DNA of 64,000 nt from an uncultured Candidatus Saccharibacteria bacterium (lineage in GTDB: Bacteria; Patescibacteriota; UBA1384; JAMDBS01; CAYSHH01). Positions within the stretch are counted from its first letter, which is position 1. Each line of letters starts with the position of its first letter. The position numbers and the translations under genes were made by a program. The stretch is taken from positions 4,183 to 68,182 of the forward strand of contig CAYSHH010000003.1 of assembly GCA_964430945.1 (NCBI GenBank), written 5' to 3'. The notes under the pieces were generated by a model, which worked only from the letters and a program-made list of their open reading frames with translations, did not search any database and was not told the origin of the DNA. Positions 22,501 to 50,009 of this stretch are shown piece by piece.

Positions 22501-24726
22501 ATGAATGTACTAAAAAAAATAATTATTACTTTTGTGATTGGGATGTTTTTGATCCCAGTTTTTGTATTTGCCGAAGACAAGCCAACAAATGATGCACCAG
22601 GTACACAAATACCAAAATTAGACGCATCTGAGACACAAGACGCGCCGATACTTCAAAATAACGAAGTTTATCCGTTTTGGGGACCGGTGTGTCAACGTTA
22701 TACCTACTCGGTTACGTATTTAGATCAAAAAGGACGTGCACCGGAATACATGCAGATATATTTCAATGGCAAGATGATTGATATGGAGAAAGAAGATCCA
22801 AATAACAATGATTATAAAAACGGGGTTAAATATATTTATAAATATGTTCCCACAAAAATCGGCTCAAATTTTTATTATTTTGAAGCGTCAAATGGTGTAG
22901 GCAAAGCTCGTGCCGCAATTATCGACTCACCCGACAATGGTCCTGTGCTTTTCGATAGTGATTTTAAAAATAATGAAATAGTTTTGTACGACAAAGAAAA
23001 TGATAAAGTCACATGGAACTACCCGACTCACGAAGAATGGGTTGGGGGTGTAGCTTTATCAGATGATGGTAAATACCTGGCCGCAAAAACATCCTACCAT
23101 GTATATCTATTTGATACATCCAAATCTGAACCACTCTGGGTATATGATTCTAGTGTAGACAATATGATTGGTGGTGATGTAAAAGGTGGTATAGATATAT
23201 CAGCCGACGGAAGTAAAATTTTTGCAGCAATAGGATCTAAAGCTTTACTTTTTGATAAAAATTCCAAAATACCTGCTTGGGAATATTCAAATAATGGTCA
23301 AGTTTCGGGTAGTGCGTACAATGTTTCAATTTCTGCCGACGGAAACTATGCTGCAAGTGCAATGGCTGGAGGTGGAGAATGCGACGCTGGAGAGGGACAA
23401 TGTAAGGAAAAAGACGCATTAATATTTTGGAATACCAATTCTAAAGATCCACTTTGGAGATACCAAACCGAAGGAAATTTTCATGATGTTTCAATATCTG
23501 CCGATGGCTCATATCTAGCTTCTTCGACTGGTTGTCCTGATAGAAGTGCTTATATATTTTCTCGCGATTCAAATGAGCCGATTGTTCAATCCGAAATGTT
23601 GACCAAAGACTCGCCAGTTGATGAAGCGTCAATTTCAGCAGATGGAATGTATAGTGTCTTTGGGGCAGAATCTTCTGACGGTGGAGTATTCCTATTTGAC
23701 CGCAATTCAAATAACCCAATTTGGAAATTTCCAACACCCAATGGCATTTCCGTTAGGGCACTTAGCATGACACCCGATTCTAAATATATTGGTGCAGCTA
23801 CTATGGCCAAAGGATACGCATATATATTTTCACGTGATTCCAATGAACCCACTGATACCTGGGATGTTGACGCTAGCCTAGGAGTAGAGGATATTGCCGA
23901 TGATGGATCCTATATAGCTGTTGGTGGAACAGATAAAAAAGTTCACATTTTCGAGCGAGGAAAAAGTGAACAACAATCACAATTTGATCTCACTGAATTT
24001 GTTGGAGAGTTAGATGTTTCAGGAAATGGTAAATATGTTGCTGCAGGCACGTCAGGATCAGTATATTTTTTTGAATCGCTTGATATTGACAATAATAGTG
24101 TTTCTGAGTGTGCACAAATTATTGAGCCGTCTCCTAAACCAACAAACTATAGCGCAGATATCGCAAAACCAACAAACAACAAAACAGGATTTGACATGCC
24201 CTTAAAAATATCGGGAATTATTTTCATACTTTCGCTTATCATCTCGGCAGTTTATTTGTATCTGATCAAAAAAGATAAGATTACTAGAAATAAAATGATT
24301 GCTTCGTTATTATTAATCATAATACTAGTAAGCTTTGGCGCAGCATTGTATTTTATTCTAGTAGATAATTCCAATACACACAACGTCGATAGTCCAAATG
24401 TTGTCAAAAGTCAAGACATTCAAACGGACGATAGTGCAAATACAGATGATGTAAATAAAAATGTTGAGGTTGCAAATCCAGAAGGAGAGAGTACATCAGT
24501 TATAAATGATAGTAGTAGCGAAGGGTCAAGCACAACAAACGATAACGTCTCTGGGGATAGTAGCTCTCAAAATGTAATACAACAAGATCCATCAGGTGAT
24601 AATAATAGTTCGGAAAACGTAATAATTCAAGACGAAACGAATGGTGATTCGGGAAACGTGATTAATAATACCGAATCCAATGATGGCACAAGTAGTGACG
24701 GTGGGGCAGGTATCGTGGTAGACTAA
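22501..24726 (+). CDS. Large surface protein with about 8 beta-propeller-type repeats, 2 TM helices and an S/N/D-rich tail
   Basis: Signal peptide. Repeated blade-like units about 45 aa long (VSISADGNYAAS, VSISADGSYLAS, ASISADGMYSVFG, MTPDSKYIGAA, IADDGSYIAVGG, VSGNGKYVAAG). TM helices follow (IIFILSLIISAVYLYLI, LLLIIILVSFGAALYFILV), then a low-complexity tail. Confidence 0.7.
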   Translation: MNVLKKIIITFVIGMFLIPVFVFAEDKPTNDAPGTQIPKLDASETQDAPILQNNEVYPFWGPVCQRYTYSVTYLDQKGRAPEYMQIYFNGKMIDMEKEDPNNNDYKNGVKYIYKYVPTKIGSNFYYFEASNGVGKARAAIIDSPDNGPVLFDSDFKNNEIVLYDKENDKVTWNYPTHEEWVGGVALSDDGKYLAAKTSYHVYLFDTSKSEPLWVYDSSVDNMIGGDVKGGIDISADGSKIFAAIGSKALLFDKNSKIPAWEYSNNGQVSGSAYNVSISADGNYAASAMAGGGECDAGEGQCKEKDALIFWNTNSKDPLWRYQTEGNFHDVSISADGSYLASSTGCPDRSAYIFSRDSNEPIVQSEMLTKDSPVDEASISADGMYSVFGAESSDGGVFLFDRNSNNPIWKFPTPNGISVRALSMTPDSKYIGAATMAKGYAYIFSRDSNEPTDTWDVDASLGVEDIADDGSYIAVGGTDKKVHIFERGKSEQQSQFDLTEFVGELDVSGNGKYVAAGTSGSVYFFESLDIDNNSVSECAQIIEPSPKPTNYSADIAKPTNNKTGFDMPLKISGIIFILSLIISAVYLYLIKKDKITRNKMIASLLLIIILVSFGAALYFILVDNSNTHNVDSPNVVKSQDIQTDDSANTDDVNKNVEVANPEGESTSVINDSSSEGSSTTNDNVSGDSSSQNVIQQDPSGDNNSSENVIIQDETNGDSGNVINNTESNDGTSSDGGAGIVVD

Positions 24727-33020: not shown

Positions 33021-33095
33021 TGGCAGCCTGTAGGGGAATCGAACCCCTGTTTTCAGCTTGAAAAGCTGACGTCCTAACCATTAGACGAACAGGCC
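33021..33095 (-). tRNA. tRNA-Glu (anticodon TTC)
   Basis: The reverse complement folds as a cloverleaf with anticodon loop ttTTCaa, a TpsiC arm ggttcgattcc and a 3' gCCA. Confidence 0.85.
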
Positions 33096-33138
33096 TTATT
33101 ATGATTTTTTAAAAACAATAGTGATTATTATATCAATA

Positions 33139-33705
33139 TTATTGTGGTATCGCAATGTCTTTTATTAAGTTATCGCTTTGATTTAAATTGTATTCGTAAA
33201 GATCAGAATATTTTCGTTGTTCATCGGCATTGGTAGCATTAGTATATTGGATCAATGCGTCTTTTGCTTTTTTTAAAAGCTCAAGAGATTTGACCATTTG
33301 ACTATTTATATCGTTAAATTTTTTATCAATTTTTAAATTATTAAATTTATTCATTCCTTCGTCAATCATCGATTCTAATTCATTGGATGCATTACTGGCC
33401 TCAGTGTCAGTAAAAATAGTTTTATATTTTATTTTATCCAAATAATCGTTAAATTTATCATTAATTGGTTTTCTGATTTTCAATACTTCATCTATATATA
33501 CCTCACCAGAAGTTATCATATCGTTACTTACATCGGCTACACTATTTAAATTATTAGAATCAGATATTATAATCGGTTCAGATGAACTTAAATCAGAAAA
33601 ATTTTTCTTTTGCAAATTCTTTTCCTGGGTATTTTCTTGTGTATAGTAATATATTGCGCCACCGACAAGTACTAATAATATTAGGGGTAAAATAACTTTT
33701 TTCAT
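33139..33705 (-). CDS. Membrane-anchored hypothetical protein
   Basis: N-terminal TM ILPLILLVLVGGAIYYY; the rest is polar. Confidence 0.45.
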   Translation of the reverse strand: MKKVILPLILLVLVGGAIYYYTQENTQEKNLQKKNFSDLSSSEPIIISDSNNLNSVADVSNDMITSGEVYIDEVLKIRKPINDKFNDYLDKIKYKTIFTDTEASNASNELESMIDEGMNKFNNLKIDKKFNDINSQMVKSLELLKKAKDALIQYTNATNADEQRKYSDLYEYNLNQSDNLIKDIAIPQ

Positions 33706-33737
33706 TTTTATTATATTAAGGTTAATTTATTGTAAGA

Positions 33738-33812
33738 TGGAGGGCGCTATGGGGATCGAACCCATGACAAACTGCTTAAGAGGCAGTTGCTCTACCACTG
33801 AGCTAAGCACCC
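33738..33812 (-). tRNA. tRNA-Lys (anticodon CTT)
   Basis: gggtgcttagctcagtggtagagc..., anticodon loop ctCTTaa, ggttcgatccc, CCA. Confidence 0.85.
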
Positions 33813-33919
33813 GCAATTTATTCTTGGGCAGATCTATTACAATGTCACAAATTAGAATTATAAAATACGTAAACAAATATTAATATTTGTAATTTATTCG
33901 AGTATTATACTATGGCATA

Positions 33920-33996
33920 TGGTGCTCTCAAGAGGAGTCGAACCTCTAACCTTCTGGTCCGAAGCCAGACGCTCTATCCAATTGAGCTATGAGAGC
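33920..33996 (-). tRNA. tRNA-Arg (anticodon TCG)
   Basis: gctctcatagctcaattggatagagc (Arg-type D arm), anticodon loop ctTCGga, ggttcgactcc, CCA. Confidence 0.75.
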
Positions 33997-34046
33997 TCAC
34001 ATTATCAAAATACTATCATGCAAATAATTTAGCGGGTTATAAAGGA

Positions 34047-34122
34047 TGGGGTGAACGATGGGATTTGAACCCACAACCACCAGAGCCACAATCTGGTGCT
34101 CTACCGTTGAGCTACGTCCACC
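34047..34122 (-). tRNA. tRNA-His (anticodon GTG) with G-1
   Basis: Extra 5' G pairing with C73, anticodon loop ttGTGgc, ggttcaaatcc, CCA. Confidence 0.85.
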
Positions 34123-34134
34123 ATATCTATAAGA

Positions 34135-34211
34135 TGGTGTCCGCGAGTGGATTCGAACCACTGACCTACAGCTTAGAAGGCTGTCGCTCTATCCAACTGA
34201 GCTACGCGGAC
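34135..34211 (-). tRNA. tRNA-Arg (anticodon TCT)
   Basis: gtccgcgtagctcagttggatagagc, loop ctTCTaa, ggttcgaatcc, CCA. Confidence 0.85.
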
Positions 34212-34273
34212 ATACTTCAAAAATATCGTTTCACGATATTTTCAAATTAAAAAATAATATTTTAAATTATTTT

Positions 34274-34349
34274 TGGAGCGGGTGAGCGGAATCGAACCGC
34301 CATAGCCAGCTTGGAAGGCTGGTACATTAACCGTTATGCTACACCCGCA
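34274..34349 (-). tRNA. tRNA-Gly (anticodon TCC)
   Basis: gcgggtgtagcataacggtta..., loop ctTCCaa, ggttcgattcc, CCA. Confidence 0.85.
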
Positions 34350-34560
34350 TATGATAATTTTTTAAAATCAAATCAAGTGTAAGACTAATTATATATTTTA
34401 AATCAAAATACTCTAATTTAAAACCAATTTATGGTCGGGCACAATCAACGCTCTTACAACTTTTTTCCTTACACAAACTCAGGATATTAATTTAAACTAT
34501 TCACTTAAACTAACCAAATAATATCAAAAAACTTGCGAGAAATAAAGAGTTAGAGATAGA

Positions 34561-34587
34561 AAAATAAAAAGAGACGAAAAGTCTCTT
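34561..34587 (-). terminator. Rho-independent terminator for 34617..35285
   Basis: aagagac-gaaaa-gtctctt with the T-tract on the minus strand. Confidence 0.7.
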
Positions 34588-34616
34588 CTTGAACTAAATA
34601 TGGTGACTGGTGATTT

Positions 34617-35285
34617 TTAATAAAGTTTGAATATTTCTTTTACAGTCTTCCGGGTAGCTTCAAATAATTGCCTATCTATTCTAATTTTTTCTTTTAATGT
34701 TTTTACAAGTAAAACTTTATTATTTTCCGACAGAAATGCTCTTTTATTCTCTTCGTATCTGGAGCGCCAATCCAACGCATCTTTTTTTAGTTTTACAGGT
34801 ACGGGCACTAAACGATCAAAAGAATGGCAGTTATTCATACTGAAGTATAGATTAAATTCCCAAACATAATACTTATCTGGATGTGGTACGGTATCATATT
34901 GTAGTACATCATGTAAATAGTGAAGCTCCTGTAACAATGTTACGCCTGCTGATCTAAAATATATAACTGCACGATCTTTGTCTAAGTCTTTTTTAGGGTA
35001 ACGTTCTCGCCATTTCCAATTTGTAAACACGCTGTCCCAGAAAAATCTCGAATCTAATGATAATTTCATCTTTACACCATGTTCTTTATAAAAATGCAAT
35101 AAACTTTGCTTGAATTGATTCAAATTACCCTTTTCTTCATAAAAATGTTTAAGGGCATGTTTGGCAAAATCGCTTTGATCCAAGATGATTGCTTCTTTTA
35201 TTAATTCTGCAGGGCAATGTTGAATATCTGGATTATTTGTAAGTAAATCAAAAAATGCATCTTCGGGTGTAAGTATTTTTGCCAT
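34617..35285 (-). CDS. Hypothetical protein (222 aa)
   Basis: Long ORF with RBS and terminator; no recognised motif. Confidence 0.5.
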   Translation of the reverse strand: MAKILTPEDAFFDLLTNNPDIQHCPAELIKEAIILDQSDFAKHALKHFYEEKGNLNQFKQSLLHFYKEHGVKMKLSLDSRFFWDSVFTNWKWRERYPKKDLDKDRAVIYFRSAGVTLLQELHYLHDVLQYDTVPHPDKYYVWEFNLYFSMNNCHSFDRLVPVPVKLKKDALDWRSRYEENKRAFLSENNKVLLVKTLKEKIRIDRQLFEATRKTVKEIFKLY

Positions 35286-35561
35286 CGTAATTCACTCCTT
35301 ATTTGCTATATTCGTAAAATTTTAAAATTCACGAAGTAACAAATAAAGAGCAATTATTAAGCAACAAAACTAGACCATAGTATTAAAAGAATATTATACT
35401 GTTAATGTAAAAATTAACTATTTAAAACAAGTTCCAACTTTCAAATACCTGTTGAATAAAAATAACTACTGAGTGGCTACTTTTAGCCAAAAATCACGTT
35501 TTTATTTTCTCTATCTGTAAACTTGACATATGTATCAAGTTTACGGTCGTAATAGATTAAC

Positions 35562-35639
35562 TGGTCGGGGTGCCGAGACTCGAACTCGGGACCTCTTGCT
35601 CCCAAAGCAAGCGCTCTAGCCAACTGAGCCACACCCCGC
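35562..35639 (-). tRNA. tRNA-Pro (anticodon TGG)
   Basis: cggggtgtggctcagttggctagagc, loop ttTGGga, agttcgagtct, CCA. Confidence 0.85.
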
Positions 35640-38389: not shown

Positions 38390-38466
38390 TGGTACTCTCG
38401 AGGGGACTCGAACCTCTAATCTTTCCCTTAGGACGGGACTGCTTTATCCAATTAAGCTACGAGAGC
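38390..38466 (-). tRNA. tRNA-Arg (anticodon CCT, probable)
   Basis: Arg-type D arm gctctcgtagcttaattggataaagc, anticodon region gtCCTaa, ggttcgagtcc, CCA. The anticodon stem has one mismatch, so the isotype is less certain. Confidence 0.65.
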
Positions 38467-44088: not shown

Positions 44089-44165
44089 TGGTGGACGACA
44101 TAGGACTTGAACCTATAACCCCTTGCATGTCATGCAAGTGCTCTAACCAATTGAGCTAGCCGTCC
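44089..44165 (-). tRNA. tRNA-Val (anticodon GAC)
   Basis: ggacggctagctcaattggttagagc, loop atGACat, ggttcaagtcc, CCA. Confidence 0.85.
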
Positions 44166-46535: not shown

Positions 46536-46888
46536 TGGGGCCATATTGGTTTCGACAGAACATTAATAACTATTGTGTCATGCCGAGTGGGATTGAGCAC
46601 TTGTAATAAAATCAATCAAACTTTAAGTGCAAAAAACTTTGTAAACAAAGTAAAGACTGCTTTTGCAGGATTTAACTTTGCACCAGCTTTAGCCTAATAA
46701 CGCTTTAGCCGTCCTTGTACACAGCGGCCCGACCGTGTACTATGGGCGCCAAATTTCGGGCTGGATGCTCTAAAGATAGATTTGGTATAGAGTATCAAGA
46801 GATAACGAAATCATGTTTCTAAGCATGTATAAAAGCACGATAGTTCATTGTGTTTTGGACAGGAGTTCGACTCTCCTTGGCTCCACCA
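46536..46888 (+). ncRNA. ssrA: tmRNA (SsrA)
   Basis: 5' ggggccatattggtttcgacag... tRNA-like start. 3' end ggacaggagttcgactctccttggctccacca carries the T-arm and CCA. The internal tag frame gca aaa aac ... gct tta gcc taa taa encodes AKNFVNKVKTAFAGFNFAPALA plus a double stop. Confidence 0.9.
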
Positions 46889-46892
46889 AAAA
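46874..46892 (+). repeat. attL-like: 19-bp tmRNA 3' end (tccttggctccaccaaaaa), repeated at 49991..50009
   Basis: Perfect 19-bp direct repeat seen in the sequence. Confidence 0.8.
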
Positions 46893-46920: not shown

Positions 46921-47237
46921 GTTGCAATTAAATATGTTAATTAAATTTAAAATAATTTCATTTAAAAAAGATTGTTTGCTAAAACTTACTTCTATCATTA
47001 AATTCTAACGTCCACTATTGTTTCTTTTTTTAATAAAGTCACATGAAAAATCAACAAACTCGACAAGGTCTTTGTTAAGTTTGTTTTGTTATATTATTAT
47101 CCACTCCTTTAATAAACATATTGAATCTAATATGTTATTGTGTTGAATTTTTAACTAGATATAGCAAGTATTGAAACAAAATTATTTTTATGCTAAGCTT
47201 GTGCTGATTATTTGTATATTAACAGGAGGCAGAATAA

Positions 47238-48509
47238 ATGCTAACTAAAACTTTCTATTTTCCAAATGGACACTATTTATTCGATGGAAGAAACTTGGAC
47301 ATCTATGAAATCAGAGAAGACGAAAAGATTCCTGAATTTAATTTTTCTGATTCTCATCAAGATACAAATTATTTTCTTAGAACTATAGTTTTGAATTTAA
47401 CATACAGCTGCAATTTAAAATGCAGTTATTGCTATGCAAACCAGGGAGCATATTGTCAACCAGGAATCAGTATGTCGTATGAGACTGCAAGGCAAGCAAT
47501 TGACTTGTTATTCGAGTCTGTTAGAAAGAATAGCGGAAATACAATGAGAATTGTTTTCTTCGGAGGCGAACCGCTTCTTTCTTATCAGCTCATAATAGAT
47601 ATTGTTAAATATGTTACACAAAAAAATATAGATAACTATGAAATTCAATATCTCATGACTACGAACGGGACTTTAATCAAAGAAGCGCAGGCAATTTTTT
47701 TTAAGAAAAACAAGTTTCAGATTATGGTAAGTATTGATGGAGACAAAATAACACATGACTCTTGTAGAATCTACGCAAATGGAGAAGGTTCATACCATGA
47801 TACTGTGTGTGCTGTTGAATTAATGATAAAAAAAGAGATCCCGCTAGAGGGAAGAATAACAATCGCAAACAATAACACGGATATATTAAAATCTGTTAAG
47901 CATCTTCGCAAAATTGGTCTTAAAAGAATAACTTTCGCAACAGACTATAATTTGTCACGTAGTGGCTTTGATAATTTTCTAAAATCTTTATCACTACTTG
48001 CAAGCTATTATTTATATTCAATTCAGAATGCAGACTATTTTGATATTTCCAATTTTACCGCACCCATTTCTTCAATTGTCACCAAAAGTAAAAAAATATT
48101 TCATTGTAGTGCTGGATTGTCATATCTTTCAGTTGGGGCTGACGGTTTAATATATCGTTGTCCTAGATTTACAGATAATAAGTTATTTCAAATTGGCAGA
48201 GTTGGAAAAAATTCTTTTGATATTGTCTCTCGGGAGATAGATAAATTCAGCCAAATTGTTAAGCATGGGGCACATGAAAGAACATTAGAATGTTCTGAAT
48301 GTCCTTATATTTTTCTGTGTGGCGGAAACTGTTACCACCATTCATTTACAAAAACTGGCAAGGAATTCAATGTGATTAGTCCAGAGTGTAAATGTAAACA
48401 TCTGATATATGATAATGCAATTAAAATTCTTTGCTTGCTGAACCCAAAGACAAGTCGCGATTTTCTCAATTTCTTGAGTGGTTCCTGGCAGACTAAAGGA
48501 GGTGAATAA
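47238..48509 (+). CDS. Radical SAM enzyme with C-terminal SPASM domain (anSME/peptide-maturase family)
   Basis: CNLKCSYC (CxxxCxxC). SPASM cysteines CSAGLSYLSVGADGLIYRC...CSECPYIFLCGGNC...CKCKH. SD aggagg. Confidence 0.85.
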   Translation: MLTKTFYFPNGHYLFDGRNLDIYEIREDEKIPEFNFSDSHQDTNYFLRTIVLNLTYSCNLKCSYCYANQGAYCQPGISMSYETARQAIDLLFESVRKNSGNTMRIVFFGGEPLLSYQLIIDIVKYVTQKNIDNYEIQYLMTTNGTLIKEAQAIFFKKNKFQIMVSIDGDKITHDSCRIYANGEGSYHDTVCAVELMIKKEIPLEGRITIANNNTDILKSVKHLRKIGLKRITFATDYNLSRSGFDNFLKSLSLLASYYLYSIQNADYFDISNFTAPISSIVTKSKKIFHCSAGLSYLSVGADGLIYRCPRFTDNKLFQIGRVGKNSFDIVSREIDKFSQIVKHGAHERTLECSECPYIFLCGGNCYHHSFTKTGKEFNVISPECKCKHLIYDNAIKILCLLNPKTSRDFLNFLSGSWQTKGGE

Positions 48510-48513
48510 ATAA

Positions 48514-48624
48514 GTGAAAAAGCTTAATTTTGGTTTAACACCAGAAGATAAAGAAAAACTTAAAGCTAATGCTTTAAAGGCCAATGCTTCGTGTGAAGGC
48601 GGACCCGAAGGAGCAGCTGGCTAA
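48514..48624 (+). CDS. 36-aa peptide, candidate RiPP precursor (MKKLNFGLTPEDKEKLKANALKANASCEGGPEGAAG)
   Basis: GTG start 8 nt after SD aaggaggtg, which lies within the last codons of the rSAM gene. It has its own terminator and a K/E-rich leader-like N-terminus. The C-terminus is Cys/Gly-rich with an internal GG. Confidence 0.55.
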   Translation: MKKLNFGLTPEDKEKLKANALKANASCEGGPEGAAG

Positions 48625-48645
48625 AATTACCGTTACGCTATTAGT

Positions 48646-48673
48646 AGGACCTTGAATAGAGGTCCTTTTTTTT
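48646..48673 (+). terminator. Rho-independent terminator after the peptide gene
   Basis: aggacc-ttgaataga-ggtcct followed by ttttttt. Confidence 0.8.
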
Positions 48674-48687
48674 ATAATATTTATTAT

Positions 48688-49281
48688 ATGAAATATACTT
48701 ACACAAATAAATACTGCGCCTTTTACCAACTTCCATTTTGTTGTGCTCCCGCAACATTACAATGGGTAATGTATCGAAATGGATTAAATATGATAGATCA
48801 AGAATTAATTGGAAAAGAATTAGGATTACGTTTACCCCAAAAAGCCAAACCCTTTTTTAGCAATGAAGATTTAATATTTTTACCAGACAACACCTCTATT
48901 AGTTTTGGAACTCAAATATTTATTAAAAAATTTAAGATTAATAGTTTTTTTAAAAAATATAATATGCCCTTAAAAATTTCGAAACAATATTTTTTCAAAA
49001 CGAAAAAAGGATTAAAAATTTTTTTGATAAATAATCTTAAGAAAAAAAATGATATAGTTTTAAGATTTAATAATAAATTGATTTCTAGTAATAAAAAAGG
49101 CTGTGGTCATTTGGCATTAATTTATAGTTTGAATGCTCACAACGATATAGTCGGAATTGGTGATCCAGATCCACCTTTCTATAAAACTATGACTTTAAAT
49201 GATATTTTGTTTTCAATATCTAATAAAATCGATGGAACTCAACGAGGATTATTTTATATTGAGAAAGTGAAAAAGTCTTAA
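48688..49281 (+). CDS. Peptidase C39-like cysteine protease domain protein (standalone)
   Basis: YQLPFCCAPATLQWVMYRNG matches the C39 Q....C(G)xAxLxMvxxYxG region. The His (GCGHLALIYSL, like gHfvVl) and the downstream Asp (DIVGIGDPD) are present. Start taken at 48688. Confidence 0.55.
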   Translation: MKYTYTNKYCAFYQLPFCCAPATLQWVMYRNGLNMIDQELIGKELGLRLPQKAKPFFSNEDLIFLPDNTSISFGTQIFIKKFKINSFFKKYNMPLKISKQYFFKTKKGLKIFLINNLKKKNDIVLRFNNKLISSNKKGCGHLALIYSLNAHNDIVGIGDPDPPFYKTMTLNDILFSISNKIDGTQRGLFYIEKVKKS

Positions 49282-49707
49282 TAATTATCTAATTTAGCTT
49301 AGTATCGGTTGTAGGCCATGGAGTAGATAGTTTAGCCGTCAGTGGCATGAAAAGAGTAAAAATAGTCGTGCTCTTCTAATAGACGAGTAAAAATAAAGAC
49401 GGGTATTTTCCGTCATTATTTTTTAAATGTACTGCTAAAAAAATCCGATTCATATCTTAAAATAAATGGGCTATAGATAATGATTTATTTTTCGGCGTTT
49501 AACATATCAATAACAGATATAGTGTAGAAATTTTTTTCATTTAATAGATTAACCGTTCTATTTCTATGCTTTTCGGCATCTATTTTCGTTTTTAATTTTT
49601 TGTTGTCTTTTATAAGCAAATAATTGCAATACTATATCCTCTCATTTATTACGAAATTACAACTGGTTATTTAAGTTTAAAACTATCATGATGTGCTTAT
49701 AAAAATA

Positions 49708-49910
49708 ATGATGGAAAAATCTTTAAGGATTTGGGAAAGAAACTGAAAGCTTTCAGAGAGGAAGCTGGGCTTACTCAATCTCAAGTTGCCAAATCAACTA
49801 GTATTTCTGTTAATTATTATGCAAGAATTGAAAGGGGCGAAGAATACCCTACTTACGAAGTTCTCCATCAGATAAAAAAGGCACTAAAAATAAAGTCGAA
49901 TCTAGTTTAG
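49708..49910 (+). pseudogene. XRE-family HTH regulator, frameshifted
   Basis: ATG at 49708 gives MMEKSLRIWERN*. The +1 frame from 49731 encodes (L)GKKLKAFREEAGLTQSQVAKSTSISVNYYARIERGEEYPTYEVLHQIKKALKI (XRE HTH). The shift sits in the run gaaaaatc. Confidence 0.55.
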
Positions 49911-49990: not shown

Positions 49991-50009
49991 TCCTTGGCTC
50001 CACCAAAAA
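49991..50009 (+). repeat. attR-like copy of the tmRNA 3' end (tccttggctccaccaaaaa)
   Basis: Identical 19-mer, immediately followed by a terminator hairpin. Confidence 0.8.

What the first reader, a model, noticed from the sequence alone, without database searches (positions are those of the whole stretch)
47238..49281. Radical-SAM/SPASM maturase coupled to a 36-aa Cys/Gly-rich peptide, followed by a standalone C39-like peptidase: candidate RiPP/bacteriocin-like module
The rSAM gene carries CxxxCxxC plus the full SPASM cysteine set. It is immediately followed by a 36-aa ORF (MKKLNFGLTPEDKEKLKANALKANASCEGGPEGAAG). Its strong SD (aaggaggtg) is embedded in the last codons of the rSAM gene, and the pair has its own rho-independent terminator. 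That is the classic arrangement of a SPASM peptide-modifying enzyme with its precursor. The next gene shows the Q...C...H...D(P) pattern of bacteriocin leader-processing C39 cysteine peptidases, and the peptide contains an internal GG. This layout is already common in other phyla; what would be new is finding it in a reduced, CPR-like AT-rich genome, and on a tmRNA-targeted insertion. It may represent an undescribed small modified-peptide system.
Basis: partly seen in the sequence, partly recalled or inferred. Interest (0 to 1): 0.9.

Follow-up and report, generated by a model that had tools for sequence, protein, structure and literature searches.

The report
Conserved radical-SAM modified-peptide cassette
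A small mobile gene cassette inserted next to the tmRNA gene encodes a radical-SAM enzyme, the 36-residue peptide it most likely cross-links, and a papain-like enzyme; the enzyme-peptide pair belongs to a widespread peptide family with an invariant CEGGxEGxxG tail that no database or paper I could search describes.

Summary

- **Enzyme.** Window 47238-48509 encodes a radical-SAM/SPASM enzyme with CxxxCxxC and all seven SPASM cysteines. Its best matches are the thioether-forming peptide maturases PapB, QhpD and CteB, but it reaches no curated family cut-off.
- **Peptide.** The 36-aa ORF (48514-48624) is a genuine gene. I collected 26 distinct homologues, all with a leader motif near (L/I)DFGL..E(L/I)..L and an identical C-terminus, CEGGxEGxxG-stop.
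- **Pairing.** Every homologue sits beside this enzyme type wherever the contig reaches far enough. None of 108 chance matches to the core DNA pattern does.
- **Third gene.** Its true start is 48688 (197 aa). It is a papain-fold Cys-His-Asp enzyme, as close to phytochelatin-synthase-like proteins and Peptidase_C39_2 as to true C39 peptidases. It follows the peptide gene in 8 loci. Elsewhere a GNAT acetyltransferase or ABC exporters take its place.
- **Insertion.** The cassette lies in a 3.1-kb segment bounded by an exact 19-nt repeat of the tmRNA 3' end, with no integrase.

Most likely mechanism: a single Cys-to-Glu thioether ring, followed by processing. This is inferred, not shown. I classify it as a new variant of a known kind (ranthipeptide-like RiPP). 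The CPR origin could not be verified.

The parts
46537..46888 (+). tmRNA gene (ssrA). Its 3' end is the left boundary of the inserted segment.
   Evidence: ARAGORN; Rfam RF00023, 133 bits
46874..46892 (+). Left copy of the 19-nt exact direct repeat TCCTTGGCTCCACCAAAAA (att-like). It overlaps the tmRNA 3' end.
   Evidence: 2 matches; 0 expected in shuffles
47072..47100 (+). Promoter-like site upstream of the rSAM gene (TTGTTA-17-TATTAT). Weak evidence only.
   Evidence: consensus scan; fewer sites found than in shuffles, so not significant in itself
47238..48509 (+). Radical-SAM/SPASM peptide maturase, 423 aa. AGGAGG SD lies upstream at about 47224-47229.
   Evidence: NCBIfam best matches: PapB 231.6 bits, QhpD 222.8 bits, both below cut-off. 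Pfam Radical_SAM, Fer4_12, SPASM. AF2 model pLDDT 90.3. Nearest solved structure CteB, TM 0.78.
47409..47432 (+). CxxxCxxC motif (C58, C62, C65) for the SAM-binding [4Fe-4S] cluster.
   Evidence: Read from the sequence; invariant in 28 homologues
48105..48389 (+). SPASM domain with seven Cys (C290, C308, C352, C355, C361, C365, C384) for two auxiliary clusters.
   Evidence: Invariant columns of alignment A1
48497..48505 (+). Shine-Dalgarno AAGGAGGTG for the peptide gene, inside the last codons of the rSAM gene.
   Evidence: Read from the sequence
48514..48624 (+). Precursor peptide gene, 36 aa, GTG start: MKKLNFGLTPEDKEKLKANALKANASCEGGPEGAAG.
   Evidence: 26 distinct homologues; always next to the rSAM
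48592..48621 (+). Invariant core CEGGPEGAAG (family pattern C-E-G-G-x-E-G-x-x-G followed by stop). Predicted site of modification.
   Evidence: synonymous codon variation at invariant residues
48646..48674 (+). Intrinsic-terminator-like hairpin plus T-run between the peptide gene and gene 3. Probable attenuator.
   Evidence: A hairpin occupies the same position in all 11 loci folded, each with a different sequence; most, though not all, are followed directly by a T-run.
48688..49281 (+). Standalone papain-fold Cys-His-Asp enzyme, 197 aa (catalytic C19, H141, D159; Q14).
49398..49414 (.). Bidirectional terminator-like hairpin after gene 3.
49731..49910 (+). 59-aa XRE-type HTH protein inside the inserted segment.
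   Evidence: Pfam HTH_3, E = 8e-13
49991..50009 (+). Right copy of the 19-nt direct repeat. Right boundary of the 3.1-kb inserted segment.

Best explanation
This is a compact RiPP (ribosomally made, post-translationally modified peptide) cassette, carried on a 3.1-kb integrase-less islet inserted at the 3' end of the tmRNA gene.

The rSAM/SPASM enzyme binds the leader of the 36-aa precursor (motif LNFGL...L). It probably uses its short N-terminal three-stranded sheet to do so. It then modifies the invariant C-terminal core CEGGxEGxxG.

By analogy with its nearest characterised relatives (PapB, QhpD, CteB), the most likely reaction is one intramolecular thioether. It would join the sulfur of Cys27 to the carbon next to a carboxylate. 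The best candidate is C-gamma of Glu32 (a CX4E ring). Alternatives are Glu28 or the C-terminal Gly36.

A hairpin/T-run after the peptide gene probably attenuates transcription, so that peptide and enzyme outnumber the downstream partner.

The papain-fold Cys-His-Asp enzyme then acts on the peptide. The most likely action is proteolytic removal of the leader or trimming. Acyl or peptidyl transfer, or self-protection, is also possible.

Shown: the gene pair and its strict co-occurrence, the conserved motifs, the enzyme class, the fold of gene 3, the attenuator architecture and the insertion repeat.

Inferred: the chemistry, the cleavage step, and the biological role (signal, antagonist or cofactor-like molecule).
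For: 1. **Enzyme class.** CxxxCxxC plus seven SPASM Cys are invariant in 28 homologues. The top NCBIfam models are all thioether-forming peptide maturases: PapB 231.6, QhpD 222.8, Nif11-type 192, SCIFF 167 bits. The nearest solved structure is CteB (E = 1.5e-63 by profile; TM 0.78).
2. **Peptide is real.** There are 26 distinct peptides with an (L/I)DFGL-type leader and an invariant CEGGxEGxxG-stop. Codons vary synonymously at invariant residues.
3. **Pairing, tested in both directions.** Starting from rSAM homologues, every fetched neighbourhood has the peptide. Starting from the peptide-core DNA pattern alone, all 15 peptide-like hits have an rSAM homologue adjacent, except two whose contigs end within about 320 nt (13 of 13 testable). 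None of 108 chance pattern hits has one.
5. **Chemistry precedent.** PapB links Cys to Asp C-beta or Glu C-gamma. It accepts CXnD/E with n = 0-6 (PMC9413430) and even C-terminal carboxylate residues (PMC12373016).
6. **Attenuator.** A hairpin lies between the peptide gene and gene 3 in all 11 loci folded, with different sequences; most are followed by a T-run.
Against: - No curated family cut-off is reached, so the reaction type rests on analogy. SPASM enzymes close in sequence can do C-C, C-O or other chemistry.
- The enzyme has only about 45 residues before the rSAM core and no helical RRE, so how it recognises the leader is unclear.
- The only GG lies inside the invariant core, and residues just before Cys are not conserved. 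No obvious protease site exists.
- Gene 3 is separated from the peptide gene by a terminator. In other lineages it is replaced by a GNAT or is absent.
- Members of the wider papain-like family occur without any rSAM.
- No exporter or immunity gene lies in the islet.
Confidence: 0.6

Rival explanations
1. The pathway yields a small cofactor-like or signalling molecule rather than a leader-cleaved antimicrobial peptide. As with PQQ, mycofactocin or SCIFF peptides, the invariant C-terminal residues are the point of the system. The partner enzyme would be an acyl or peptidyl transferase, or an excision enzyme acting on the cross-linked CEGG unit. In this window that partner is the papain fold; elsewhere it is a GNAT.
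For: - The core is identical across very different genomes (GC 22-46%; Marinitoga, MAGs labelled Alphaproteobacteria, gut and groundwater contigs), which is unusual for bacteriocins.
- In the other lineages the GNAT sits in the same slot, and in two loci it is almost translationally coupled to the rSAM.
Against: - Some family members sit next to two ABC exporters and an HTH regulator, the usual layout of an exported peptide.
- The cassette is mobile and sporadic, so it is not a housekeeping trait.
- No enzyme that would use such a cofactor is linked to it.
- The similarity to phytochelatin synthase is at fold and clan level only.
Confidence: 0.15
2. Only the rSAM-peptide pair is a functional unit. 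The papain-like gene is an unrelated passenger or a self-protection gene. It might degrade or neutralise the product, as the GNAT MccE and the peptidase MccF both do for microcin C.
For: - A terminator and a promoter-like site separate it from the peptide gene.
- The third slot is variable: papain-like, large GNAT, small GNAT on the opposite strand, or none.
- A relative from the wider papain-like family sits in a ribosomal-protein operon with no rSAM.
- The GNAT gives weak hits to aminoglycoside N-acetyltransferase resistance models.
Against: - Synteny of the papain-like gene directly after the peptide gene holds in 8 loci whose other neighbours all differ.
- The rSAMs of five of these six loci cluster together in a rough NJ tree.
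- The hairpin between the two genes is itself conserved in position, which suggests regulated read-through rather than independence.
Confidence: 0.15
3. The rSAM installs a different modification, not a thioether. Candidates are epimerisation, a C-C or C-O cross-link, or oxidative decarboxylation of the C-terminus.
For: - Scores to all thioether-maturase models are well below the trusted cut-offs.
- SPASM enzymes of similar sequence are known to differ in chemistry. PMC10288494 notes paraphyletic sactisynthases in clades with C-O, C-C and rearrangement chemistry.
- The invariant C-terminal Gly recalls C-terminal chemistry of the MftC type.
Against: - The single invariant Cys followed by invariant Glu residues is exactly the donor/acceptor pair used by the best-matching enzymes PapB and QhpD.
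- The core has no aromatic residue of the kind used by cyclophane, StrB or MftC-type enzymes.
Confidence: 0.1

Closest known systems
PapB / freyrasin (ranthipeptide maturase, NCBIfam NF047865)
   Same: It is the best-scoring curated model (231.6 bits). Both are rSAM/SPASM enzymes, and both have a Cys donor with an acidic acceptor C-terminal to it. PapB accepts Glu and ring sizes CX0-6 (PMC9413430).
   Different: - The score is below the 340-bit cut-off.
- The precursor has one Cys in CEGGxEG instead of six CX3D repeats.
- The N-terminal domain is only about 45 residues.
- The partner genes differ.
QhpD (quinohemoprotein amine dehydrogenase gamma-subunit maturase, TIGR03906)
   Same: It is the second-best model (222.8 bits). 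It makes Cys-to-Asp/Glu thioethers in a small Cys/acid-rich polypeptide.
   Different: - The score is below the 453-bit cut-off.
- No qhpA, qhpB, qhpC, qhpE or qhpG genes are nearby.
- The substrate here is a 36-aa free peptide, not an enzyme subunit.
CteB / SCIFF peptides (TIGR03974; PDB 5WGG)
   Same: It is the nearest solved structure. SCIFF precursors are also short, highly conserved across species, and encoded next to their maturase.
   Different: - The score is 167 bits against a 425 cut-off.
- SCIFF peptides have six Cys in about 45 residues and Cys-Thr links.
- CteB has a full N-terminal RRE-like domain of about 86 residues, against about 45 here.
Peptidase C39 (double-glycine leader peptidase domains of PCAT/ComA transporters)
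   Different: - The protein here is standalone and is not fused to an ABC transporter.
- The window protein has no PF03412 hit.
- The GG in the substrate lies inside the invariant core, not at the leader end.
Phytochelatin-synthase-like Alr0975 (NsPCS; MEROPS C83) and Pfam Peptidase_C39_2
   Same: - It is the best solved relative by sequence profile (E = 3e-10, with catalytic Cys, His and Asp aligned).
- C39_2 is the Pfam model matched by most family members (43 of 65).
   Different: - Identity is only about 18%.
- The window protein itself hits neither model.
- There is no evidence for a gamma-Glu-Cys substrate.
tmRNA (ssrA)-targeting genomic islands
   Same: The insert abuts the tmRNA 3' end and is flanked by a duplicated copy of that end.
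   Different: It is only 3.1 kb and has no integrase, so it is a remnant or a non-autonomous element.

Membership tests
Radical SAM / SPASM peptide maturases (RiPP rSAM) | CxxxCxxC motif for the SAM cluster | tested here: met
   C58, C62 and C65 are invariant in 28 homologues. Pfam Radical_SAM, E = 7.7e-15.
Radical SAM / SPASM peptide maturases (RiPP rSAM) | Seven-Cys SPASM motif (CX9-15GX4C ... CX2CX5CX3C ... C) | tested here: met
   C290-x12-G303-x4-C308; C352, C355, C361, C365; C384. All are invariant. The Pfam SPASM hit itself is just below gathering (18.9 against 21.5 bits).
Radical SAM / SPASM peptide maturases (RiPP rSAM) | A conserved short precursor peptide encoded next to the enzyme | tested here: met
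   26 distinct peptides. Adjacency holds wherever the contig allows; 0 of 108 controls show it.
Radical SAM / SPASM peptide maturases (RiPP rSAM) | RiPP recognition element (winged-helix RRE) for leader binding | tested here: inconclusive
   In the AF2 model, residues 3-25 form a three-stranded sheet with no helices. There are about 45 residues before the rSAM core, against about 86 in CteB.
PapB-family ranthipeptide maturase (NF047865) | Score at or above the curated cut-off (340 bits) | tested here: not met
   231.6 bits for the window protein; 249 and 240 bits for two relatives.
PapB-family ranthipeptide maturase (NF047865) | Formation of a Cys-S to Asp C-beta or Glu C-gamma thioether | not testable with these tools
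   Needs mass spectrometry or NMR of the modified peptide.
QhpD (TIGR03906) | Score at or above 453 bits, and a qhp operon context | tested here: not met
   222.8 bits. The neighbours are the tmRNA, an HTH gene and truB.
SCIFF maturase ScfB/CteB (TIGR03974) | Score at or above 425 bits, and a six-Cys precursor | tested here: not met
   167.1 bits. The peptide has one Cys, or two in some relatives.
Anaerobic sulfatase maturase (TIGR03942) | Score at or above 349 bits, and a cognate sulfatase | tested here: not met
   127 bits. No sulfatase gene was seen at the window islet or in the called genes and ORFs inspected at the related loci.
Peptidase C39 (bacteriocin leader peptidase) | Papain fold with catalytic Cys and His (plus Asp) and an oxyanion Gln | tested here: met
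   [not shown]
Peptidase C39 (bacteriocin leader peptidase) | Match to Pfam PF03412, and fusion to an ABC exporter | tested here: not met
   No Pfam hit at E <= 1 for the window protein. 15 of 65 relatives hit PF03412 weakly. The gene is standalone, with no ABC gene in the islet.
Peptidase C39 (bacteriocin leader peptidase) | Cleavage after a double-glycine motif at the end of the leader | not testable with these tools
   The sequence shows the only GG inside the invariant core CEGG|xEG, which argues against a classical site. An enzyme assay is needed.
Phytochelatin-synthase-like (C83 / PF05023) and Peptidase_C39_2 (PF13529) | Sequence-profile membership | tested here: inconclusive
   The window protein has no hit. 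Of its 65 relatives, 43 hit C39_2 (best E = 9e-10) and 14 hit Phytochelatin. The family profile against PDB gives Alr0975 at E = 3e-10.
tmRNA-targeting integrative island | Direct repeat of the tmRNA 3' end flanking the insert | tested here: met
   19-nt exact repeat, 3117 nt apart.
tmRNA-targeting integrative island | Integrase or recombinase gene within the island | tested here: not met
   Only the rSAM, the peptide, the papain-like gene and a 59-aa HTH lie between the repeats.

The most novel reading that the evidence does not exclude
The CEGGxEGxxG peptides are precursors of a conserved small thioether-containing molecule with a cofactor-like, redox or signalling role, analogous to mycofactocin or PQQ. 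The papain-fold enzyme in the CPR-like lineage and the GNAT elsewhere would be non-homologous, interchangeable acyl or peptidyl transferases acting on it. That would make this an unrecognised small-molecule pathway that even very reduced genomes acquire by horizontal transfer.
Probability: 0.12. Interest if true: 0.85.

Novelty: new variant of a known kind. Interest (0 to 1): 0.6.

Why it matters
If the prediction holds, this is a new ranthipeptide-like family. It has a minimal single-ring, 10-residue core that is identical across distant lineages, a maturase with a stripped-down leader-binding module, and two unrelated partner enzymes (papain-fold or GNAT) that replace each other.

That would give a very small, tractable system for three questions:
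- how SPASM enzymes recognise leaders without a full RRE;
- what standalone C39_2 / phytochelatin-synthase-like proteins do, given that 374 cluster representatives (50% identity) currently have no assigned function;
- what modified peptides are for in organisms with reduced genomes.

The product would also be a compact thioether macrocycle scaffold.

Tried and rejected
1. **Sulfatase maturase or another non-peptide rSAM.** Rejected on scores and context.
2. **Spurious 36-aa ORF.** Rejected by the conservation found.
3. **TTG start at 48652 for gene 3.** Rejected. It overlaps the terminator, and homologues and the database protein start at 48688.
4. **Genome-contig scan with the rSAM alignment.** The tool chose generic rSAM patterns, so 79 of the 80 loci were distant SCIFF/PapB-like genes and only L003 was useful. 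The window's own genome and its taxon were not recovered.
5. **Source look-ups.** An exact look-up of the window's rSAM found nothing. The look-up of gene 3 gave only an anonymous Logan contig. Cluster look-ups carried no names. The CPR claim therefore could not be tested.
6. **Literature.** 'CEGGSEG' gave 0 papers. Marinitoga plus radical SAM plus precursor peptide gave 0. Papers mentioning both Patescibacteria and ranthipeptide do not describe this family.
8. **Plasmids and viral contigs.** The best plasmid match is 31.6% identical (SCIFF-type), and no genuine peptide was found on viral contigs.
9. **Fourth gene.** The HExxH-containing ORFs after gene 3 in L002 and L090 are not detectably related to each other.
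10. **tRNA/tmRNA near the cassette elsewhere.** None found in 18 other loci.
Full report
**1. Observation**

- ORF 47238-48509 encodes a 423-aa protein with C58-x3-C62-x2-C65. It also has a complete seven-cysteine SPASM motif: C290-x12-G303-x4-C308, C352-x2-C355-x5-C361-x3-C365, and C384. All of these residues are invariant in an alignment of 28 homologues.
- The sequence AAGGAGGTG (48497-48505) lies in the last codons of this gene. It sits 8 nt upstream of a GTG that opens a 36-codon ORF (48514-48624): MKKLNFGLTPEDKEKLKANALKANASCEGGPEGAAG.
- A terminator-like hairpin with a T-run follows at 48646-48674.
- The third gene was given as 48652-49281 (TTG, 209 aa), a start that overlaps the hairpin. 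Homologues, and an identical 197-aa protein in the public collection, show that it starts at ATG 48688.

**2. The radical-SAM enzyme**

- Against NCBIfam the best models are all peptide maturases, led by the thioether-forming ones: PapB 231.6 bits (cut-off 340), QhpD 222.8 (453), Nif11-type 192.4, and SCIFF/ScfB 167.1 (425). The anaerobic sulfatase maturase model scores 127 (349). No cut-off is reached. Two relatives behave the same way.
- By sequence profile the nearest solved structure is CteB (5WGG, E = 1.5e-63).
- An AlphaFold model built on 28 sequences is confident (pLDDT 90.3) and superposes best on CteB (TM 0.78), then on anSME.
- The part before the rSAM core is only about 45 residues. 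The model shows a three-stranded sheet (residues 3-25) with no helices. CteB has about 86 residues there. The usual winged-helix leader-recognition element is therefore truncated.

**3. The peptide is a real, conserved gene that always travels with this enzyme**

A search of 5.8 billion proteins found about 30 rSAM homologues at 37-50% identity, then a drop to about 31% or below. Every neighbourhood of this clade that I fetched contains a short ORF next to the rSAM gene that ends in CEGGxEGxxG:
- L001 and L002
- L003
- Marinitoga piezophila, L083
- gut contigs L085-087
- L088, L090 and L091

A profile search with six such peptides found ten database peptides with the same tail.

- Fifteen new hits have a recognisable leader.
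- All fifteen have an rSAM homologue adjacent, except two whose contigs end within about 320 nt.
- None of the 108 remaining (chance) pattern matches has an rSAM, papain-like or GNAT homologue.

In total there are 26 distinct peptides.
- The leader consensus is (L/I)-D-F-G-L-(S/T)-x-x-E-(L/I)-x-x-L. A variable stretch of 8-10 residues follows, then C-E-G-G-(S)-E-G-x-x-G and the stop codon.
- The invariant residues are written with all synonymous codons: Cys TGT 13 / TGC 9, Glu GAA/GAG, Gly with four codons. The constraint is therefore on the protein, not the DNA.
- Neither Pfam nor NCBIfam has a model for the peptide.
- The string CEGGSEG occurs in no paper of the library.

**4. The third gene**

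- The 197-aa protein has only three close relatives in the word-indexed search. An exhaustive profile search found 374 cluster representatives, nearly all standalone proteins of about 190 residues.
- Across 65 of them, C19 and H141 are invariant, and Q14, D159 and P160 nearly so.
- The window protein hits no Pfam model. Members of the family hit Peptidase_C39_2 (43 of 65), Peptidase_C39 (15), Phytochelatin (14) and other clan-CA families.
- The family profile matches the phytochelatin-synthase-like Alr0975 at E = 3e-10, with the catalytic Cys, His and Asp aligned.
- The protein is therefore a papain-fold Cys-His-Asp enzyme. 'C39-like' is right at fold and clan level. It is at least as close to phytochelatin-synthase-like and BtrH-like enzymes, several of which are transferases rather than proteases.

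Linkage to the cassette:
- It follows the peptide gene in the same orientation in 8 loci (window, L001, L002, L090, L091, L147, L152, L189) whose other neighbours all differ.
- One database protein is a fusion remnant: the N-terminus of this rSAM family joined to the papain-like domain.
- A more distant family member lies in a ribosomal-protein operon with no rSAM. The wider family is therefore not dedicated to this pathway.

**5. The third slot is interchangeable**

| Partner | Loci |
|---|---|
| Papain-fold enzyme (about 197 aa) | window, L001, L002, L090, L091, L147, L152, L189 |
| GNAT of about 243 aa (PF12746) | L003, L083, L085, L088, L095, L099, L104 |
| Small GNAT of about 137 aa, opposite strand | L134, L213 |
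| Two ABC exporters, no papain-like or GNAT gene | L151, L187, L208 |

- In L083 and L088 the gene order is peptide-GNAT-rSAM, with only 6-11 nt between the GNAT and the rSAM gene.
- L187 also has a 604-aa HTH protein upstream of the cassette.
- In a rough neighbour-joining tree of the rSAMs, five of the six papain-associated enzymes form one cluster nested among GNAT-associated ones (no support values).
- A hairpin lies between the peptide gene and the next gene in all 11 loci examined. The sequences differ but the position is the same, and most are followed directly by a T-run. This is the architecture expected for an attenuator that keeps the precursor transcript in excess.

**6. The insertion**

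- The tmRNA gene is at 46537-46888.
- Its last 15 nt plus 4 nt of flank (TCCTTGGCTCCACCAAAAA, 46874-46892) recur exactly at 49991-50009. There are two matches in 64 kb and none in 100 shuffles.
- Between the repeats lie only the three cassette genes and a 59-aa XRE-type HTH gene. There is no integrase.
- Outside the repeats are ordinary chromosomal genes: DsbA-like, H+-PPase, truB, MPG glycosylase, RNase Y, ThrRS, ThyX.
- None of 18 other loci has a tRNA or tmRNA gene near the cassette, and each has different neighbours. The cassette moves horizontally, and here it sits in a remnant or non-autonomous tmRNA-site islet.

**7. Mechanism (inferred)**

The best-matching characterised enzymes all join a Cys sulfur to a carbon of another residue. 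[quoted passage not shown] PapB accepts Glu, spacings CX0-6, and even the C-terminal carboxylate residue (PMC9413430; PMC12373016).

The core here offers one invariant Cys followed by invariant Glu at +1 and +5, and an invariant C-terminal Gly at +9. I therefore predict a single thioether ring. Cys27-Glu32 (C-gamma) is most likely. The papain-fold enzyme would then act on the peptide.

A classical double-glycine cleavage is unlikely, for two reasons. The GG is part of the invariant core, and the residues before Cys are not conserved.

The invariance of the core across lineages, and the replacement of the papain-like enzyme by GNATs, leave room for a transferase, a self-protection role, or a cofactor- or signal-like product. 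I rate these as rivals.

**8. What could not be established**

- **Taxon of the window.** The genome scan did not recover it, and the database entries carry no names. Circumstantial points fit a small-genome organism but prove nothing: GC is 33%, and the closest cassette relatives come from, for example, a 0.1-um groundwater fraction (L091).
- **Chemistry, cleavage site and biological role.** These need experiments.

**9. Verdict**

It is a new variant of a known kind: a ranthipeptide-like rSAM RiPP. The precursor family is undescribed in the libraries I could search. It has an unusually invariant minimal core and interchangeable partner enzymes. Interest is moderate to high for RiPP and rSAM specialists. 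It is not categorically new.

Noticed in passing
L088 6568-8784 (JGI 3300076002, 472-kb contig): A second RiPP-like set lies directly beside the CEGG cassette. Its 73-aa peptide shares the same long N-terminal leader (MSLIKKEVKMT...SIGGI) but has a different core (...CSCDSDDDNPW). It is followed by a second rSAM, a 96-aa PqqD/RRE-like ORF and a methyltransferase. One leader type appears to be shared by two maturation systems.
   Followed up: partly
L083 6881-11249 (Marinitoga piezophila CP003257): Two further rSAM genes, a Cys-rich 53-aa peptide and an ABC-2 transporter lie just downstream of the CEGG peptide-GNAT-rSAM cassette.
   Followed up: no
L208 81-1985: The ABC-type CEGG cassette in this contig lies next to a dUTPase-like ORF (1572-1985) and three other ORFs I did not identify. 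By eye these look phage-like, which might mean a prophage, but no domain search was run on them.
   Followed up: no
L187 1787-3601: A 604-aa protein with an internal HTH_3 domain sits upstream of the rSAM-peptide-ABC-ABC set. It could be a peptide-responsive regulator.
   Followed up: partly
P0219 (403 aa), from the exhaustive search: A member of the wider papain-like family is fused to a Peptidase_S51 (dipeptidase E / cyanophycinase) domain. Another (P0172) carries a cupin domain. These hint at small-peptide metabolism for the wider family.
   Followed up: partly
L093 4001-4600: A relative of the papain-like protein (E = 3.6e-39 to the family profile) sits just upstream of an archaeal-style S13-S4-S11-RpoD-L18e-L13-S9 operon, with no rSAM nearby.
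   Followed up: partly
[not shown]
   Followed up: partly
window 33021-35638 (- strand): A cluster of seven tRNA genes (Glu, Lys, Arg, His, Arg, Gly, Pro) lies within 2.6 kb. tRNA-Arg(cct) at 38390-38466 and tRNA-Val at 44089-44165 lie further on.
   Followed up: no
window 22501-24726: A 741-aa WD40 / beta-propeller repeat protein, unusual in a small AT-rich bacterial genome.
   Followed up: no
L002 8213-9004 and L090 3674-4438: In two papain-type loci the next gene encodes a protein of about 255-263 aa with an HExxH motif. The two are not detectably related to each other and have no Pfam hit.
   Followed up: yes
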